Part shown: positions 1 to 25,992 of the stretch, piece by piece
Position numbering within the stretch: the stretch's first letter is position 1
Layout of the letters: each line of letters opens with the position of its first letter
From: a virus
DNA length: 25,992 nt
Reading direction: 5' to 3' (one strand)
IMG/VR virus record: IMGVR_UViG_3300025736_000003
Program-made: the position numbers and the translations under genes
Notes under the pieces: model-generated
What the model was told of the DNA's origin: nothing
Seen by the model: the letters and a program-made list of their open reading frames with translations, nothing else
Database searches by the model: none

Positions 1-127
1 TGTGTATAACCCTATATCCTTCCTTCTCAGCATACTTTTTACAATATTCCTTCTGCTGTGCTATATTTTGTTGCTCGTCGTCTGTAGAGATTCTAGTGTA
101 TATTATTGCTTCCTTAACCATAAATTA
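1..127. repeat. Terminal overlap identical to 25866-25992 (circular-assembly signature); contains the first 121 nt of the recombinase gene
   Basis: Base-by-base comparison of the first and last 127 nt shows 100% identity. Minus-strand translation of 121..1 gives MVKEAIIYTRISTDDEQQ..., the same N-terminus as the CDS at 25489..25986. Confidence 0.9.
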
Positions 128-217
128 AATTTCCACCCTTATATTCTACAAATTCATTTCTTTGTATCCAGCTAAGGATTTTATCTTTTGTTAATCTATC
201 CATTCGTCTTAGGTTTG
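119..217. repeat. 99-bp perfect direct repeat, copy 1 (starts at the recombinase start codon and covers its upstream region)
   Basis: The string cataaattaaatttccaccc...cattcgtcttaggtttg at 119-217 is identical to 734-832 (offset 615 bp). Confidence 0.9.
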
Positions 218-1549: not shown

Positions 1550-1682
1550 TGTGACTTCTCCTGCGACGCATTGTGGACAAATGTCGTATTCTCTTCCAAT
1601 TGTTTTTTTATCTGTTTTACCATTTTGTGTTTGCCCGAAGACTTGTGGGTAGAAAAATATCCGACTAATCTATAATATTAAT

Positions 1683-1975
1683 TTGACCTTGACCTTGACC
1701 ATGACCTTGACCATGACCCTGACCCTGACCCTGACCCTGACCCTGACCATGACCATGACCTTGACCCTGACCTTGACCCTGACCCTGACCATGACCCTGA
1801 CCCTGACCCTGACCCTGACCCTGACCCTGACCCTGACCATGACCCTGACCCTGACCCTGACCATGACCATGACCTTGACCCTGACCTTGACCCTGACCCT
1901 GACCATGACCCTGACCCTGACCCTGACCATGACCCTGACCATGACCTTGACCCTGACCTTGACCCTGACCATGAC
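1683..1975. repeat. Tandem hexanucleotide array (C/T/A)TGACC, about 49 units, with a higher-order duplication
   Basis: Direct reading shows a perfect 6-bp period with variation only at unit position 1. A block of about 65 bp recurs at roughly 1748 and 1863. All frames are open across it, which explains the four ORF-track entries here. Confidence 0.9.
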
Positions 1976-2009
1976 TTATCATAACACACACGAAGTATTA
2001 TTGCGTTAC

Positions 2010-4481: not shown

Positions 4482-4578
4482 TAGAACAACTAGAACAACT
4501 AGAACAGGTGATGTCCACTCAATTCTACATATGGAAAGTAAGTGGGGTTTGCCTGTTCTTCTTGTTCTACCTGTTCTA
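4482..4578. promoter_or_regulatory. Inverted arrays of AGAACA(A/G) repeats (3 + 3 copies) around a 43-bp spacer: candidate origin or operator
   Basis: Three tandem tagaacaac/tagaacagg units at 4482-4508 and, on the opposite strand, cctgttct/tcttgttcta/cctgttcta at 4552-4578. The right arm overlaps the last codons of the primase-helicase gene. Confidence 0.45.
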
Positions 4579-6189
4579 TTTGATAATTTCACCCTTAAAT
4601 TTAATTCCAACCCATGCCCTTCCCTTCTTATTTATATCCCATGGAAGATATTTTAATTTCTGTTCAATCCCTAATTGTTTCATTTTACTACCAATTACTA
4701 CATCTGAAATTTCTCTAAACCTATTTTCTTTACACCATTCGTTTAACTTTTTAGAAAAATCATTTTTCCATACTACACCATCAGAGTCTTCTTCTGTAAA
4801 TTCTTTAAGGAATTTTTCTAAAGGATTACTATGATCCTCATATTTTTTCATTCTATCTTCAATTGTACCTTCATTAGTAAATTCTCTTTTCTCTAATAAA
4901 TCTTTTAATATTAAAGAACATTTAACAGTTAGTGCTTCATATTCCTCATCTGGTATCTCAGATAATATATCTTTCTTTTCTGAAAATTGGTTTGGAAAAT
5001 CTATAATCATCCATCTTCTATAAAATCCAATAGTTTTATCATTTGTGGCTGGAAGATTATTAGTAGCAATCATTATTTTAGCATAATTAATTTCTTCAAA
5101 AGGATCTTTATTTTTATACTCAAACCCTATTAAATCTCCACCTGATAATTTCTTTAAGATAGAAGTTTTATTCATTTCTGAAAAATTAGTTTCTCCCATT
5201 TGACAAACTAATTTTTTATGTAATCGGGTAACCTCAAATCTACTTTGTAATAAAGTATCTAATTCTGTTGAACAGCAATTACTGCCCCCAATAAATTTCC
5301 TGAGTAAATTTAAGAAACAACTTTTACCATTCATACCACCACCAATAAAACAAAAGATTCTATGGATAGGATAATCTGGAATTAAACAATATGCTAATAT
5401 TTCATATAAGGTTTGAACGTGATCCTTCCCAACCCATTCCTCAAATATTTTGTCCATTATGGGAGTTTCATAAAATCCATCTTCATTTAATTTCCATGGT
5501 ATTGGATTAGTAACAAATAGATGTGGTGTTGCCCTTGATTGCTCCCCTGTCTTAATATTCATTATAGTATTTTCAAATTGAACTGTATATTTTCCTATTG
5601 GGGCCGGAATATTTAATCTACTTACTTGTTTAAGAGCTTCAATCATCTCATTTTTTTCCTTAGAATTTATTGTGTTTATTGTTGCTTGTTTATCAACTGC
5701 ATTTAATATATCAGTTTCATCTACTCTTTCCCATTTTGTTTCTGGCCAATTCCATAACCACCAACTTCTAGAATTATCATATAAACAGGGTTGTATTTCA
5801 ATAATATGTTCTGCTAATTCTTTTTTATCGAACATATTCCCAAGTTTTTCTGTTAAATTTTCGACAGGATAATTTTTCTTTTCATTTTCTTCAATAGTTC
5901 TTTTTTGTTTTTTAAAATAATTTAATTGTTCTTTAAGAAGAGTAATTTTTCTACCAGTTTTTTTAGATAAAATTTTTAACGCATCATCTATTTCTAAAGG
6001 GGACAACCCTAAGATATTTTTTAACTCTTTTATTACTTCATCTGACGATGATATTTTTATTTTTTTATCATTTATTAATTCAATAAATCCGTTATCAATA
6101 TATTCCTGTTCATCCCCTCCTGGAAAACTCGCCTCTTTTATCTCTCCAGCTTTCCCACCAGCATAATTTTTTAATATTTTAATTTTCAT
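4576..6189 (-). CDS. D5/P4-family primase-helicase (SF3 helicase domain), 537 aa
   Basis: D5_N-like segment with SRSWWLWNWPETKW. Walker A FIGGGMNGKS (the GxGxNGKS form typical of P4-type primase C-terminal domains), motif C IMIATNNLP, and YRRWMIIDF as an arginine-finger region. Confidence 0.8.
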   Translation of the reverse strand: MKIKILKNYAGGKAGEIKEASFPGGDEQEYIDNGFIELINDKKIKISSSDEVIKELKNILGLSPLEIDDALKILSKKTGRKITLLKEQLNYFKKQKRTIEENEKKNYPVENLTEKLGNMFDKKELAEHIIEIQPCLYDNSRSWWLWNWPETKWERVDETDILNAVDKQATINTINSKEKNEMIEALKQVSRLNIPAPIGKYTVQFENTIMNIKTGEQSRATPHLFVTNPIPWKLNEDGFYETPIMDKIFEEWVGKDHVQTLYEILAYCLIPDYPIHRIFCFIGGGMNGKSCFLNLLRKFIGGSNCCSTELDTLLQSRFEVTRLHKKLVCQMGETNFSEMNKTSILKKLSGGDLIGFEYKNKDPFEEINYAKIMIATNNLPATNDKTIGFYRRWMIIDFPNQFSEKKDILSEIPDEEYEALTVKCSLILKDLLEKREFTNEGTIEDRMKKYEDHSNPLEKFLKEFTEEDSDGVVWKNDFSKKLNEWCKENRFREISDVVIGSKMKQLGIEQKLKYLPWDINKKGRAWVGIKFKGEIIK

Positions 6190-21139: not shown

Positions 21140-21175
21140 GCGTTACAGCGTTACGCACTTGCGTTACAGCGTTAC
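21140..21175. promoter_or_regulatory. Four GCGTTAC heptamers (two 15-bp direct repeats) immediately upstream of the ATG at 21137: candidate operator
   Basis: gcgttacagcgttac at 21140-21154 and again at 21161-21175, lying between a TATA-like AT box and the start codon. Confidence 0.45.
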
Positions 21176-21206
21176 ACTAATTAAGAATTATTACTATTTA
21201 AATATA

Positions 21207-21350: not shown

Positions 21351-21406
21351 ATCTTAATTAGCAAAGCAAAGTTTAAATACTTACTTACTTACTAATTAAT
21401 GTAAAG

Positions 21407-22872: not shown

Positions 22873-22989
22873 TAGTTAAACCCAATCAAATAAAGATAGT
22901 TACATTGTAACACAGTGAACGCACCTTTATAATAAAACTTTCTTATATAGTATTATGTTTATAACTAAATTCTCAAAGGAGGTTTTAAA

Positions 22990-23304
22990 ATGAGAAACAA
23001 TAAGAAAGGACAGAGTGCTAATATTGGTGCAATGATAGGAGGTATTATAGGTTTGATATTTCTAGTTGTTGTAGGATTTGTATCTTTAGATATTTTGACT
23101 GGTGCTGGATTGCTAACAAGTGATTCTGCATTTGATAATGCTACAGATAGATTAGTTGGTAATCTGACGGCTGGTGTAGACAAGGTATCTGTAAAGATTC
23201 CAATAATGTTTACTATCACTGTAGCTGTTCTATTACTTGGATTGATTGTATTCCTTGTCATCAGGGCAAGACAAGCACAGCAAGTTCAAGGCGGAACTAT
23301 TTAA
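22990..23304 (+). CDS. Small hydrophobic two-helix protein (104 aa), candidate major virion/membrane structural protein
   Basis: Canonical AGGAGG 8 nt upstream of the ATG, preceded by TATA-like boxes. Two hydrophobic segments (IGAMIGGIIGLIFLVVVGFV and IMFTITVAVLLLGLIVFLVI). Confidence 0.5.
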   Translation: MRNNKKGQSANIGAMIGGIIGLIFLVVVGFVSLDILTGAGLLTSDSAFDNATDRLVGNLTAGVDKVSVKIPIMFTITVAVLLLGLIVFLVIRARQAQQVQGGTI

Positions 23305-23329
23305 ATTTAGAAATAAATTTAAGCTACAT

Positions 23330-23417
23330 TTGAGATGACAGATCCTGCTGGGGTAAACTCACGAGCATCCGGCGGCATCTCAAAAAGTGCGGGGGAAACC
23401 AAACTGGCATCCGCACT
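23330..23417 (+). other. GC-rich island with two stable hairpins (possible structured RNA or terminator-like element)
   Basis: ttgagatg (23330-23337) pairs with catctcaa (23376-23383), and agtgcgg (23386-23392) pairs with ccgcact (23411-23417). Local GC is far above the surrounding sequence; no U-tract follows. Confidence 0.35.
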
Positions 23418-23462
23418 ATAATCCAATTAAAGAATTAAATTACAATGGAGGAAAAATAAAAT

Positions 23463-23693
23463 ATGGAAAAATCATTATCACAACTAAGAGCAGAGGTAGA
23501 TACTTTGCGTAGAAAGAAAGCGGAAAAAGAGTCTCTAGTTAAATTATCTAATAAGAGAGATATAGAAAAAAGAAAATTAAAGTCTGAATTATCTAATTTA
23601 AAAAGTCCTAAGAGGAAGGCAGCTTTAGGATTTACTAGAGCATTCTTTAGTGAAGCTGGGAAACTTATAGCACCTAATAAAAAAAGAAGATAA
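23463..23693 (+). CDS. Basic coiled-coil protein (76 aa)
   Basis: GGAGG about 13 nt upstream; Lys/Arg/Glu-rich heptad-like sequence. Confidence 0.45.
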   Translation: MEKSLSQLRAEVDTLRRKKAEKESLVKLSNKRDIEKRKLKSELSNLKSPKRKAALGFTRAFFSEAGKLIAPNKKRR

Positions 23694-23766
23694 AAAAATT
23701 CATTTTTAAGATATTTACTTTTTAGATTTAATAGAATCAATTAAGATTTTATTTAAATCCTCAAGC

Positions 23767-24936: not shown

Positions 24937-24956
24937 AATTATTAGTAAGTTAGTTA

Positions 24957-25088
24957 CTATTTAAACTTTGTGTTATGTAGTTTTTTATCGAGTGCATTCT
25001 TTAATATTTTAGTTGATATAAAATAAATTAATATTTTTAAAGAGATAACCACTGCTGCTGCTAAAAATATTTTTATCCAAAAATTCAT
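24957..25088 (-). CDS. Tiny membrane protein (43 aa)
   Basis: Manual translation MNFWIKIFLAAAVVISLKILIYFISTKILKNALDKKLHNTKFK; ATGA overlap with the upstream ORF. Confidence 0.3.
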   Translation of the reverse strand: MNFWIKIFLAAAVVISLKILIYFISTKILKNALDKKLHNTKFK

Positions 25089-25488: not shown

Positions 25489-25986
25489 CTAAATCTTCTT
25501 ATTTCTTCCAACCGCACCTTTCTTCCGGCCCTTATATTTCCCTTCAGCTTTTGCCCTAGCTATACCAACTGCTCTCTTTATATTAAGATTATCAATATAA
25601 AAAGCATTCATAGCCATTTTAATTCTAAAAGTGAACTTCCCCATAGGATTAACTAAATCAACCATCTCAGATAAAGATTTAATAATAATATTATTTTTAA
25701 TAACAAAACGTTCAAACCAAACGCTATCATAAAAATCTCTGCAAATCCTATCAACATCCTGAACAATTAAATGTACTGTTGGGTTCTCCTCTAAAAACTT
25801 TAACATCCTTTTACCGCCGCTTCGTTCACAAACATTTATCTTACCACTAATCTTATCTCCAATGGTGTGTATAACCCTATATCCTTCCTTCTCAGCATAC
25901 TTTTTACAATATTCCTTCTGCTGTGCTATATTTTGTTGCTCGTCGTCTGTAGAGATTCTAGTGTATATTATTGCTTCCTTAACCAT
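25489..25986 (-). CDS. Small serine recombinase (resolvase/invertase catalytic domain), 165 aa, no obvious C-terminal HTH
   Basis: N-terminal YTRISTDDEQ motif with Arg10/Ser12 arranged as in resolvase/invertase active sites, and a DRICRD motif around residue 80. The protein stops at ...KGRKKGAVGRNKKI, where the HTH domain of typical resolvases would start. Confidence 0.75.
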   Translation of the reverse strand: MVKEAIIYTRISTDDEQQNIAQQKEYCKKYAEKEGYRVIHTIGDKISGKINVCERSGGKRMLKFLEENPTVHLIVQDVDRICRDFYDSVWFERFVIKNNIIIKSLSEMVDLVNPMGKFTFRIKMAMNAFYIDNLNIKRAVGIARAKAEGKYKGRKKGAVGRNKKI

Positions 25987-25992
25987 AAATTA
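25866..25992. repeat. Terminal overlap, second copy (identical to 1-127)
   Basis: Identical 127-mer at both window ends, implying a unit length of 25,865 bp. Confidence 0.9.

What the first reader, a model, noticed from the sequence alone, without database searches (positions are those of the whole stretch)
23330..23417. Nested GC-rich hairpins downstream of the hydrophobic-protein gene
Two stems (8 bp and 7 bp) form an 88-nt GC-rich island between two plus-strand genes, without the U-tract expected of a canonical terminator. It may be a structured regulatory RNA, an attenuator, or a DNA site such as an attachment or packaging site.
Basis: seen in the sequence. Interest (0 to 1): 0.45.

Follow-up and report, generated by a model that had tools for sequence, protein, structure and literature searches.

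The report
Conserved RNA hairpins after capsid gene
The two GC-rich hairpins just after the small hydrophobic (probable coat-protein) gene of this circular, probably archaeal, virus genome form a strand-specific RNA structure that recurs at the same spot in related viruses, matches no catalogued RNA family, and most likely marks and protects the end of the coat-protein message.

Summary
Window 23329-23417 holds two adjacent (not nested) hairpins in a 55-58% GC island, in a genome that averages 32% GC.

**Hairpin 1** (23329-23384) is a conserved RNA motif.
- Eleven distinct versions were found in related metagenomic virus contigs.
- Each lies on the coding strand, 20-26 nt after the stop codon of the same 104-aa two-helix protein gene.
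- 98% of base-pair cells pair, and 11 of 18 pairs show compensatory changes.
- There are 26 G·U pairs against 1 A·C, so the plus-strand RNA is the functional form.
- Unpaired bulges are the most conserved part: a 7-nt bulge AUAGAUC, G-UAAA-C, and an invariant G·U.

**Hairpin 2** (23386-23417) repeats the upper module of hairpin 1. In relatives with a convergent downstream gene it carries a U-run; in the window it does not.

A third, AT-rich hairpin (23301-23322) encloses the stop codon.

There is no tRNA, Rfam, phage or plasmid match. A small ORF, attP/ori/pac sites, K-turn sRNAs and antitermination were rejected.

Best reading, at about 0.5: a cis-acting 3'-end/intercistronic element of the coat-protein mRNA that blocks 3'-to-5' decay or acts as a partial stop. 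Its conserved bulges imply a specific fold or partner that remains unknown. It is a new RNA motif of moderate interest.

The parts
22899..22933 (+). Promoter of the coat-protein-like gene: GTTACA/GTAACA/GTGAAC repeats (22899-22920) directly upstream of a TATA box, TTTATAAT (22926-22933)
   Evidence: Read from the sequence. The same layout appears about 55-65 nt upstream of the homologous ATG in 13 of 14 related loci: GTAACA-type repeats, then TTTATAWA, then a GGAGG Shine-Dalgarno. Promoter function is inferred.
22990..23304 (+). Gene for a 104-aa protein with two hydrophobic segments, the putative major virion/capsid protein. This is the upstream 'hydrophobic-protein gene' of the finding.
   Evidence: ORF. 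85 homologues in metagenomes, none with a Pfam domain and nearly all without an informative name. No Pfam or PHROG family. The profile comparison with His1 VP21 is weak (probability 2%, E 0.024). The capsid role is therefore inferred from size, topology and gene neighbourhood.
23301..23322 (+). P0: AT-rich 9-bp hairpin with a GAAA loop, which encloses the stop codon TAA (23302-23304)
   Evidence: MFE folds. In 16 of 17 distinct related loci a local hairpin holds the stop codon in its stem or loop. Mean z = -2.2. There is a compensatory U-A to C-G change between the window and L017.
23329..23384 (+). Hairpin 1, the conserved motif. Its parts are: P1 (23329-37 with 23376-84); a 5'-side 7-nt bulge ACAGAUC (23338-44); P2 (23345-52 with 23368-75, ending in the invariant G23352·U23368); G23353-C23366; a UAAA bulge (23354-57); P3 (23358-59 with 23364-65) with loop CACG; and bulged A23367.
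   Evidence: Fold. Alignment A4 of 11 distinct versions: 98% paired, 11 of 18 pairs compensatory, 0 of 500 shuffles reach this, slid controls 37-47% paired. RNAalifold finds P1 and P2. Covariance model R1 gives 73.5 bits, E 5.5e-17, on the plus strand only. Hits occur in all 11 loci, 20-26 nt after the stop codon.
23386..23417 (+). Hairpin 2: 8-bp stem (23386-93 with 23410-17). It is a partial copy of the upper module of hairpin 1 (GGGG-GAAAC ... GCAUCC). It is preceded by A5 (which reads U5 after the hairpin on the minus strand) and has no U-run on the plus strand.
   Evidence: R1 matches model positions 17-43 at 19.8 bits, E 0.007. L008 carries the compensatory change GUGCGG/CCGCAC to GUGGGG/CCCCAC. 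Alignment A5: 95.7% paired, 2 compensatory pairs, 46 of 500 shuffles as good. In L031, L005, L036 and L054 the homologous hairpin is followed by U6-U9 and a convergent gene.
23417..23422 (+). TATAAT, directly after hairpin 2. It recurs at this position in most relatives and coincides with the point where otherwise identical contigs diverge.
   Evidence: Sequences (window, L008, L001, L033, L036, L054, L017, L052/53, L038). Window vs L015, and L052 vs L053, diverge right after it. Its role is unknown: a weak TATA box for the next gene, or part of the stop signal.
23463..23693 (+). Downstream 76-aa basic coiled-coil gene with a GGAGG Shine-Dalgarno at 23447-23451. It is an optional cassette, absent from many relatives that keep hairpin 1.
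   Evidence: ORF. Present or absent across loci. Homologous start in L053.
23692..23707 (.). Convergent-gene junction with A7 (which reads T7 on the minus strand) and T5 (23703-23707, plus strand). This is the first oligo-T stop signal downstream of the hairpins.
   Evidence: Sequence. Archaeal termination relies on U-tracts with aCPSF1 (PMC8716108, title and abstract). Use of this signal here is inferred.

Best explanation
**What it is.** Hairpins 1 and 2, together with the stop-codon hairpin P0, are RNA structures in the 3' untranslated/intercistronic part of the transcript of the small two-helix (putative major capsid) protein gene. The genome is a 25.9-kb circular, probably archaeal, spindle-virus-like genome.

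**Proposed mechanism.**
- The gene has its own TATA-box promoter and a strong Shine-Dalgarno.
- As RNA polymerase leaves the gene, the plus-strand RNA folds into P0, hairpin 1 and hairpin 2.
- Hairpin 1 starts 20-26 nt after the stop codon, just outside the footprint of a terminating ribosome, so it should stay folded on translated mRNA.
- The folded block would define and protect the 3' end of the coat-protein message. It would act as a barrier to 3'-to-5' exonucleases and/or as a pause or processing point.
- The result would be that the coat-protein segment accumulates far above whatever lies downstream.
- Hairpin 2 is the terminator-like half. In relatives with a convergent downstream gene it is flanked by an A-run and a U-run, reading as hairpin plus U-run on both strands. 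In the window the plus-strand U-run is missing, which would allow some read-through into the 76-aa gene up to the T5 at 23703.

**What remains unidentified.** The conserved unpaired nucleotides are the AUAGAUC bulge, the G-UAAA-C GNRA-like bulge and the invariant G·U. The upper module also occurs twice. These features imply a defined tertiary fold or a specific protein partner, which I could not identify.

**Shown.** The structure, its strand, its conservation and covariation, its fixed position after this gene, and the absence of a known family.

**Inferred.** That it is part of the coat-protein mRNA, the stabilising/partial-stop function, the existence of a partner, and the archaeal host.
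For: 1. Structure and strand:
   - Fold z = -3.0 on the plus strand against -1.7 on the minus strand.
   - 11 distinct homologues with 98% of cells paired, 11 of 18 pairs compensatory, 0 of 500 shuffles as good.
   - 26 G·U against 1 A·C.
   - R1 scores 73.5 bits on the plus strand and 8.4 on the minus.
2. Tied to the upstream gene:
   - One copy per locus, always 20-26 nt after the stop of the 104-aa gene.
   - It follows only the last copy where the gene is duplicated (L029).
   - It is kept when neighbours are rearranged (L038), and whether the next gene is co-directional or convergent.
3. P0 around the stop codon is also conserved as a structure. The region between the gene and hairpin 1 is therefore under RNA-level selection and is likely transcribed with the gene.
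4. Relatives that lack hairpin 1 mostly carry other stable plus-strand hairpins at the same place. z is -2.4 to -3.3 in L031, L005, L036 and L054, which suggests a general need for 3' structure there.
5. Hairpin 2 homologues carry U6-U9 where the downstream gene converges. The window has the first plus-strand T5 only after the 76-aa gene.
6. It is the only non-coding GC island in the genome, and R1 finds no other copy. It is therefore specific to this gene and not a general terminator type.
7. Unpaired bulge columns are more conserved (83% pairwise identity) than paired columns (68%), the spacer (57%) or the apical loop (30%).
8. From my own knowledge: strong hairpins or partial terminators directly after the major coat gene are classic in T7 (T-phi after gene 10) and Ff phages (after gene VIII).
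Against: - No transcript data exist. 3' ends, read-through and half-lives are all unobserved.
- A plain exonuclease barrier needs only a stable stem. It does not explain 20 invariant positions, the invariant G·U or the conserved bulges.
- L001/L007 have almost no structure beyond P0 (z = +0.9), so the element is dispensable in some relatives.
- In archaea, hairpins are not known to be required for termination, which depends on U-tracts (PMC8716108). The window has none here.
- A TATA-like sequence overlapping the stop codon sits about 23 nt upstream of the base of hairpin 1, so an independent small RNA cannot be excluded.
- The host is not identified.
Confidence: 0.5

Rival explanations
1. Independent small RNA. 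The TATA-like sequence that overlaps the stop codon (TTTAAATT, 23300-23307) would drive a roughly 60-90-nt virus-encoded sRNA. It would start at the base of hairpin 1 and end at or after hairpin 2, and would act in trans or as the leader of the 76-aa gene.
For: - The spacing from stop codon to hairpin 1 is held at 20-26 nt, which is the usual archaeal TATA-to-start distance (own knowledge).
- The sequence matches 7 of 8 bases of the genome's own repeated TATA box, TTTAAATA.
- Conserved unpaired nucleotides and a duplicated module fit a trans-acting or protein-binding RNA.
Against: - The TATA-likeness follows from the AT-rich last codons (ATT TAA). It is also present in relatives without hairpin 1, and is poor in L055 (TTGTAATT).
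- The same spacing is explained by P0 filling the gap.
- P0 itself shows RNA-level conservation, so the region is transcribed from upstream.
- No BRE-like AAAG precedes it.
Confidence: 0.17
2. A new functional RNA class whose job is more than being a stable stem. Examples would be an exonuclease-resistant fold, a self-cleaving or processing element that creates the mRNA 3' end, or a specific aptamer or protein-recruiting site (retroregulation in the manner of lambda sib).
For: - 20 invariant positions in 52, an invariant G·U, a GNRA-like G-UAAA-C bulge and a conserved A-rich 7-nt bulge.
- The same upper module occurs twice in tandem.
- No Rfam family matches even at E up to 10.
Against: - No three-way junction or pseudoknot typical of known small ribozymes was seen.
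- No candidate cleavage site or ligand is apparent.
- Several relatives replace hairpin 1 by simple hairpins, so any special activity is dispensable.
- Only 11 sequences from one virus group are available.
Confidence: 0.12
3. Attenuator or processive antitermination element (nut/put-like). Hairpin 1 would modify RNA polymerase or switch structure to control read-through of hairpin 2 into the downstream 76-aa gene.
For: - The order is conserved element, then terminator-like hairpin, then small gene in the window and in L008.
- The bulge G-UAAA/GGAAA/GAAAA has the GNRA-like pentaloop pattern of lambda boxB (own knowledge; sequences).
Against: - In most relatives hairpin 1 is followed by a convergent gene or by no co-directional gene (L003, L017, L024, L052, L012).
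- Five loci have hairpin 1 without hairpin 2.
- I found no mutually exclusive pairing between the two hairpins.
- No such mechanism is known in archaea (own knowledge).
Confidence: 0.05
4. Decoy or mimic of a host RNA. An example would be a CRISPR-repeat-like hairpin (stem, tetraloop, then GGGG-UAAAC resembling repeat 3' handles that end in AAAC) that sequesters host proteins.
For: - Two tandem copies of a roughly 30-nt module.
- There is a superficial resemblance of YCC-NNNN-GGG-GUAAAC to hairpin-plus-handle CRISPR repeats (own knowledge only).
Against: - The NNNN that would be the 'tetraloop' covaries with the 3' strand of P2, which contradicts that fold.
- No host array is available for comparison.
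- A pattern scan of IMG/VR found the motif only in this virus group.
Confidence: 0.04
5. A DNA-level site: an attachment site for the serine recombinase, a replication origin, or a packaging site.
For: - The genome is circular and encodes a resolvase-type serine recombinase.
- At the DNA level the region is an imperfect palindrome.
Against: - Arms change sequence freely between relatives while pairing is kept, and pairing relies on G·U, which is A·C on the other strand: 26 against 1.
- No tRNA or tRNA-like match.
- The position is tied to the stop codon of one gene. It is not near the recombinase (25489-25986) or the primase-helicase (4576-6189).
- No match in 185,579 species genomes to the neighbouring proteins, so no provirus was seen.
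Confidence: 0.03
6. A small protein-coding gene. ATG 23336 opens a 27-codon frame that runs through both hairpins.
For: The frame is open in the window, L008, L017 and L012.
Against: - 7 of 11 relatives lack an in-frame ATG; five of them have no ATG, GTG or TTG at all.
- L024 and L029 have a stop right after the GVN/GGN codons.
- Loop-length changes shift the frame.
- Substitutions are compensatory for pairing, not synonymous.
- No Shine-Dalgarno is present.
Confidence: 0.01

Closest known systems
Hairpins or partial terminators placed directly after the major coat-protein gene of phages (T7 T-phi after gene 10; Ff terminator after gene VIII), and intercistronic mRNA-stabilising hairpins (e.g. 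malE-malF REP, puf operon)
   Same: A stable GC-rich stem-loop sits immediately 3' of the most highly expressed structural gene, on the coding strand. It lies between that gene and a less needed downstream gene. It is expected to raise the upstream segment above the downstream one.
   Different: - No U-tract follows it on the coding strand in the window.
- The host is probably archaeal, where hairpins are not the known stop signal.
- Conservation is strong in bulges and in a G·U pair.
- There is a single copy per genome, unlike REP.
- Function is untested.
Bacterial intrinsic (Rho-independent) terminator, including bidirectional ones
   Same: Hairpin 2 is a GC-rich 8-bp stem. In relatives it is flanked by an A-run and a U-run, like a bidirectional terminator. 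In the window the minus strand reads hairpin followed by U5.
   Different: - On the plus strand in the window it is followed by UAUAAUCC, not a U-run.
- Hairpin 1 is never followed by a U-run.
- Promoters in this genome are of the TATA-box type.
Lambda sib retroregulator and lambda nut (boxB) / HK022 put RNAs
   Same: These are cis-acting structured RNAs located 3' of a gene that control the fate of the transcript. The bulge has a GNRA-like five-base pattern, as in boxB.
   Different: - No RNase III-type long duplex is present.
- No boxA and no N-like protein were found.
- Downstream co-directional genes are absent in most relatives.
- These are bacterial mechanisms.
Exonuclease-resistant or 3'-end-protecting viral RNA folds (flavivirus xrRNA, ENE triple helix)
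   Same: A compact conserved viral RNA fold in a 3' UTR, with conserved unpaired nucleotides that could make tertiary contacts.
   Different: - No pseudoknot, ring or U-rich clamp is evident.
- The resemblance is in concept only.
- Nothing was tested.
Spindle-shaped archaeal viruses (Halspiviridae His1; wyrdviruses of Asgard archaea), as the genomic setting
   Same: - A small coat-like protein with two hydrophobic segments, in one or two tandem paralogues.
- A soluble P-loop ATPase next to it.
- Large adhesin-like proteins.
- A roughly 15-26-kb genome.
- No tailed-phage genes.
   Different: - Profile similarity to His1 VP21 is not significant.
- There is no DNA or protein match in the phage collection.
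- Wyrdvirus sequences could not be compared directly.

Membership tests
Bacterial intrinsic terminator | GC-rich stem-loop | tested here: met
   Hairpin 1 has P1 of 9 bp plus P2 of 8 bp. Hairpin 2 has an 8-bp stem.
Bacterial intrinsic terminator | A run of U directly after the stem, on the transcribed strand | tested here: not met
   On the plus strand, hairpin 1 is followed by AAAAA and hairpin 2 by UAUAAUCC. The scan reports no terminator-like site here. The feature is met only on the minus strand for hairpin 2 (U5), and on the plus strand in relatives L031, L005, L036 and L054.
Archaeal U-tract terminator | Oligo-T (at least about 5 T) at the transcript end | tested here: not met
   There is no T5 in 23305-23462 on the plus strand. 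The first is at 23703-23707. The criterion is taken from PMC8716108 and my own knowledge.
tRNA or tRNA-like attP core | Cloverleaf or tRNA 3'-half detectable | tested here: not met
   ARAGORN finds 0 genes in the window. No Rfam tRNA or tmRNA hit.
Any Rfam 15 family (riboswitches, ribozymes, sRNAs, leaders) | Covariance-model score at or above gathering threshold | tested here: not met
   0 hits at gathering thresholds over the window. At E up to 10 there were only three noise hits of 7-16 bits, against thresholds of 42-70.
Archaeal box C/D or H/ACA sRNA, or K-turn element | Box C (RUGAUGA) and box D (CUGA); or an ACA box with a two-sided pocket; and a 3-nt bulge followed by tandem G·A pairs | tested here: not met
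   Inspection of alignment A4 shows three failures. GAGAUGA is present only in some sequences and is not conserved (L003, L024, L029). There is no CUGA or ACA at the 3' side. The 7-nt bulge has no opposing unpaired strand and no GA/AG pairs.
Lambda-type nut/boxB antitermination site | Short stem closed directly around a GNRA-like pentaloop, with boxA, an N-type protein, and downstream terminators and genes on the same strand | tested here: not met
   The G-UAAA-C sits in an internal bulge of a longer helix supported by covariation. Most relatives have no co-directional downstream gene. No N-like protein was recognised.
Conserved structured RNA motif (generic criteria for a new family) | Several distinct sequences, pairing kept through compensatory changes, better than shuffled and slid controls, and strand-specific | tested here: met
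   There are 11 distinct sequences with 98% of cells paired. 11 of 18 pairs have changes on both sides. 0 of 500 shuffles reach this, and slid controls pair at 37-47%. G·U 26 against A·C 1. The caveat is that all sequences come from one virus group, so they are related.
mRNA 3'-end stabiliser or intercistronic hairpin | Located in the 3' UTR of the protected gene on the coding strand, outside the terminating ribosome's footprint | tested here: met
   The motif starts 20-26 nt after the stop codon in all 11 loci, on the same strand as the gene.
mRNA 3'-end stabiliser or intercistronic hairpin | Upstream RNA segment accumulates or outlives the downstream segment, with 3' ends at the hairpin | not testable with these tools
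   This needs RNA-seq or Term-seq, or decay assays.
Spindle-shaped-virus major capsid protein (His1 VP21 / SSV1 VP1 type), for the upstream gene | About 70-100 aa with two hydrophobic helices, and detectable profile homology to known members | tested here: inconclusive
   Size and two hydrophobic segments are present. hhalign against His1 VP21 gives probability 2%, E 0.024, over equivalent regions. No PHROG, Pfam or PDB match.

The most novel reading that the evidence does not exclude
Hairpin 1 is the founding example of a new class of virus-encoded structured RNA in uncultivated, probably archaeal (possibly Asgard-infecting, wyrdvirus-like) spindle-type viruses. Its invariant G·U, GNRA-like bulge and A-rich 7-nt bulge would build a specific tertiary fold or protein- or ligand-binding site with an active role. 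That role could be an archaeal counterpart of exonuclease-resistant RNAs, a 3'-end-processing element, or a factor-recruiting or decoy RNA, as opposed to a passive stem.
Probability: 0.25. Interest if true: 0.75.

Novelty: new variant of a known kind. Interest (0 to 1): 0.55.

Why it matters
To my knowledge and in the papers searched, almost nothing is described about cis-acting or non-coding RNAs of archaeal viruses. No conserved RNA structure is described for the spindle-virus-like groups found in sediments and stratified lakes.

This element is short (52-56 nt) and well defined, and it is supported by covariation. It sits at a fixed place after the probable coat gene. That makes it a tractable handle on three questions:
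- How such viruses set the level of their most abundant protein.
- How archaeal mRNA 3' ends are formed or protected when no U-tract is present.
- Which host or viral factor reads the conserved bulges.

It also gives a nucleotide marker, covariance model R1, for finding members of this virus group in metagenomes. If it proves to be only a stabilising stem, it is an ordinary device in an unusual host range.

Tried and rejected
**Database and similarity searches**
- tRNA/tmRNA scan: nothing.
- Rfam at gathering and at E up to 10: nothing meaningful.
- Megablast of the whole window, tblastn of the ATPase, and blastn of the element against phage and plasmid collections: no relevant match. The only hit was a 22-nt chance match in a Bacillus plasmid.
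- Exact 24-mer of hairpin 1 in IMG/VR: none.
- Degenerate motif pattern in IMG/VR: 9 hits. Only one was real, the same contig as L012. The rest lack the 3' half.

**Provirus and host search**
- Searches of species genomes with the coat-like protein and with the 232-aa neighbour found nothing.
- The host is therefore unassigned, and an attB or host-copy test could not be done.

**Alternative readings of the element**
- Small ORF through the hairpins: rejected.
- K-turn, C/D, H/ACA, bulge-helix-bulge, hammerhead-type cores and an anti-Shine-Dalgarno mimic were considered by inspection of A4 and rejected. CCUCC is present only in L038 and L003.
- Alternative pairing between hairpins 1 and 2 (a switch): none convincing.

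**Promoter and terminator context**
- Sigma-70 promoter and intrinsic-terminator scans show no enrichment over shuffles.
- The TTGTAA-17-TATAAT match upstream of the coat gene is better read as a TATA box, because the spacing to the GTAACA repeats is not conserved in relatives.

**Checks on the neighbouring gene and the setting**
- Pfam, PHROG and PDB searches of the neighbouring proteins gave little.
- The His1 coat-gene 3' region has an unrelated hairpin plus U6 and no overall excess structure.
Full report
**1. The observation**

The window averages 32% GC. In 60-nt windows only a few places exceed 55% GC. Two of these lie in coding sequence, one is a hexanucleotide repeat, and the last is 23332-23425, between two plus-strand genes.

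On the plus strand the region folds into two adjacent hairpins at -33.1 kcal/mol. This gives z = -3.0 against dinucleotide shuffles, against z = -1.7 for the minus strand.

- Hairpin 1 (H1) is two-tiered. P1 pairs 23329-37 with 23376-84. A 7-nt bulge follows on the 5' side only (23338-44). P2 pairs 23345-52 with 23368-75 and ends in G23352·U23368. Then come G23353-C23366, a UAAA bulge, a 2-bp cap with a CACG loop, and a bulged A23367.
- Hairpin 2 (H2) pairs 23386-93 with 23410-17.
- Neither hairpin is followed by a U-run on the plus strand.

**2. The setting**

Bases 1-127 equal 25866-25992, so the window is a circularly assembled genome of 25,865 bp.

*Genes recognised.*
- A resolvase-type serine recombinase.
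- A D5/DUF5906 primase-helicase.
- A DNA methyltransferase.
- Large proteins with lectin-like and beta-helix domains.
- A P-loop ATPase.
- Many ORFs with no family.
- No tailed-phage genes were recognised.

*The gene upstream of the hairpins.* It encodes a 104-aa protein with two hydrophobic segments. It has 85 metagenomic homologues, none with a Pfam domain and nearly all without an informative name. Some relatives carry two tandem copies.

*Resemblance to spindle-shaped archaeal viruses.* This gene content matches published descriptions of such viruses, including wyrdviruses (bioRxiv 10.1101/2021.07.29.453957). However, a profile comparison with His1 VP21 is not significant. I therefore call the protein a putative coat protein.

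*Evidence for an archaeal host.*
- An identical AAAGTTTAAATA box lies 21-27 nt upstream of Shine-Dalgarno-less start codons of two convergent operons.
- The coat-like gene has a conserved TTTATAWA box preceded by GTAACA repeats in 13 of 14 loci.
- Sigma-70 and intrinsic-terminator patterns are not enriched.
- The host itself was not found.

**3. Relatives**

I collected related loci using the ATPase, the coat-like protein and look-ups of its homologues. Directly after the homologous stop codon, 11 distinct versions of H1 were found: window, L008, L017, L012, L024, L003, L029, L032, L038, L052 and L055.

*Pairing in alignment A4.*
- 98% of 198 pair cells are standard pairs.
- 11 of 18 pairs change on both sides.
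- No shuffle out of 500 reaches this, and slid controls pair at 37-47%.
- RNAalifold independently recovers P1 and P2.
- The cap pair covaries, U-A or C-G (Fisher p = 0.024).

*Strand.* G·U pairs outnumber A·C by 26 to 1, so the plus-strand RNA is the selected form.

*Covariance model R1.*
- It scores 59-75 bits in every locus, always on the gene's strand.
- Each hit starts 20-26 nt after the stop codon.
- It finds no other full copy in the window.

*Invariant and conserved positions.*
- Twenty positions are invariant. They include the G·U pair, GGGG, AAAC, AUCC and parts of the AUAGAUC bulge.
- Mean pairwise identity by column class is shown below.

| Column class | Mean pairwise identity |
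|---|---|
| Unpaired bulge columns | 83% |
| Paired columns | 68% |
| Spacer between stop codon and motif | 57% |
| Apical loop | 30% |

**4. Hairpin 2 and the stop-codon hairpin**

*H2 as a partial copy of H1.* R1 matches H2 as a partial copy of the upper module: model positions 17-43, 19.8 bits, E 0.007.

*H2 in relatives.*
- L008 carries a compensatory change in the H2 stem.
- A wider H2 alignment is 95.7% paired with two compensatory pairs, which is moderate support (46 of 500 shuffles as good).
- In L031, L005, L036 and L054, H2 is preceded by an A-rich stretch (an A4-A5 run in L031 and L005), followed by U6-U9, and faces a convergent gene. In L031 and L005 it therefore looks like a bidirectional stop signal.
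- In the window and L008 a small co-directional gene follows and the plus-strand U-run is absent.
- Five loci have H1 without H2.

*P0.* A further AT-rich hairpin, P0, encloses the stop codon (23301-23322, GAAA loop). It is present in 16 of 17 loci with mean z = -2.2.

*Loci without H1.* Most still carry other stable plus-strand hairpins at the same place. L001/L007 do not.

**5. What it is not**

- There is no tRNA and no Rfam family.
- There is no similar DNA in the phage or plasmid collections.
- The 27-codon ORF through the hairpins is not conserved.
- DNA-site readings (attP, ori, pac) conflict with the G·U asymmetry, with free change of arm sequence, and with the fixed link to one gene's stop codon.
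- K-turn, C/D, H/ACA and known small-ribozyme cores do not fit the alignment.
- An attenuator or antitermination role conflicts with the variable or convergent downstream genes.

**6. Most likely function**

The element belongs to a self-contained expression cassette: promoter, Shine-Dalgarno, coat gene, then P0-H1(-H2). This cassette stays intact when neighbours are rearranged (L038).

I consider it a 3'-end/intercistronic RNA element of the coat-protein mRNA. It would block 3'-to-5' decay and/or act as a pause or partial stop, keeping the coat message abundant relative to downstream RNA. In the window, transcription probably continues in part to the T5 at 23703-23707.

This reading rests on position, strand, conservation and analogy. 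The analogies are phage coat-gene terminators and intercistronic stabilisers, from my own knowledge. It does not explain the sequence-specific bulges, which point to a defined fold or a binding partner. Confidence in the function is about 0.5. Confidence that it is a genuine conserved plus-strand RNA structure is about 0.9.

The main rival is an independent small RNA driven by the TATA-like sequence overlapping the stop codon.

**7. Novelty**

No catalogued family matches, and no paper found describes it. It is a new RNA motif of a familiar general kind, namely a viral 3'-UTR structure, in a poorly known and probably archaeal virus group.

Noticed in passing
window 1-127 and 25866-25992: A perfect 127-nt terminal direct repeat. 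The window is a circularly closed assembly of a 25,865-bp genome.
   Followed up: partly
window 23301-23322: AT-rich 9-bp hairpin with a GAAA loop that encloses the stop codon of the coat-like gene. A stop-codon hairpin recurs in 16 of 17 related loci with different sequences (mean z = -2.2). Its function is unknown.
   Followed up: partly
window 21367-21396 and 24941-24970: A 30-nt inverted repeat (90% match) containing AAAGTTTAAATA. It lies 21-27 nt upstream of Shine-Dalgarno-less start codons of two convergent operons. These look like twin archaeal BRE/TATA promoters of leaderless transcripts.
   Followed up: partly
window 22899-22933 (also 21150-21180); upstream of the homologous gene in L001, L003, L024, L029, L032, L033, L036, L038, L052, L055: Two to four GTTACA/GTAACA repeats directly upstream of the TATA box of the coat-like gene, conserved across relatives. 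This is probably the operator of an unknown transcription regulator. Similar repeats lie near the start of the long minus-strand structural operon.
   Followed up: no
window 1682-1979: About 50 tandem copies of the hexamer TGACCY (GC up to 0.65). On the minus strand one frame would read Gly-Gln/Gly-His repeats. Several overlapping ORFs are listed there.
   Followed up: no
window 119-217 and 734-832: A perfect 99-nt direct repeat 615 nt apart, near the recombinase gene end of the genome. It could be a recombination or duplication product or an assembly artefact.
   Followed up: no
window 23417-23424 vs L015 1129-1136; L052 vs L053 just after the motif: Contigs that are otherwise identical diverge exactly after the TATAAT(CC) that follows the hairpins. 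One version carries the small basic-protein gene and the other does not. The downstream gene is therefore a swappable cassette with a breakpoint at the end of the structured block.
   Followed up: no
L029 1184-1815; L009 1291-1760: Some relatives carry two tandem paralogues of the coat-like gene. Hairpin 1 follows only the second copy.
   Followed up: partly
L038 1-3294: The gene order is rearranged. The ATPase operon is divergent from the coat-like gene, and the 232-aa protein gene is co-directional with it. Hairpin 1 still follows the coat-like gene.
   Followed up: partly
window 23386-23417, minus strand: Read on the minus strand, hairpin 2 is followed by U5 (U7 in L017). It could stop antisense transcription coming from the convergent 232-aa operon before it enters the coat gene.
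   Followed up: no
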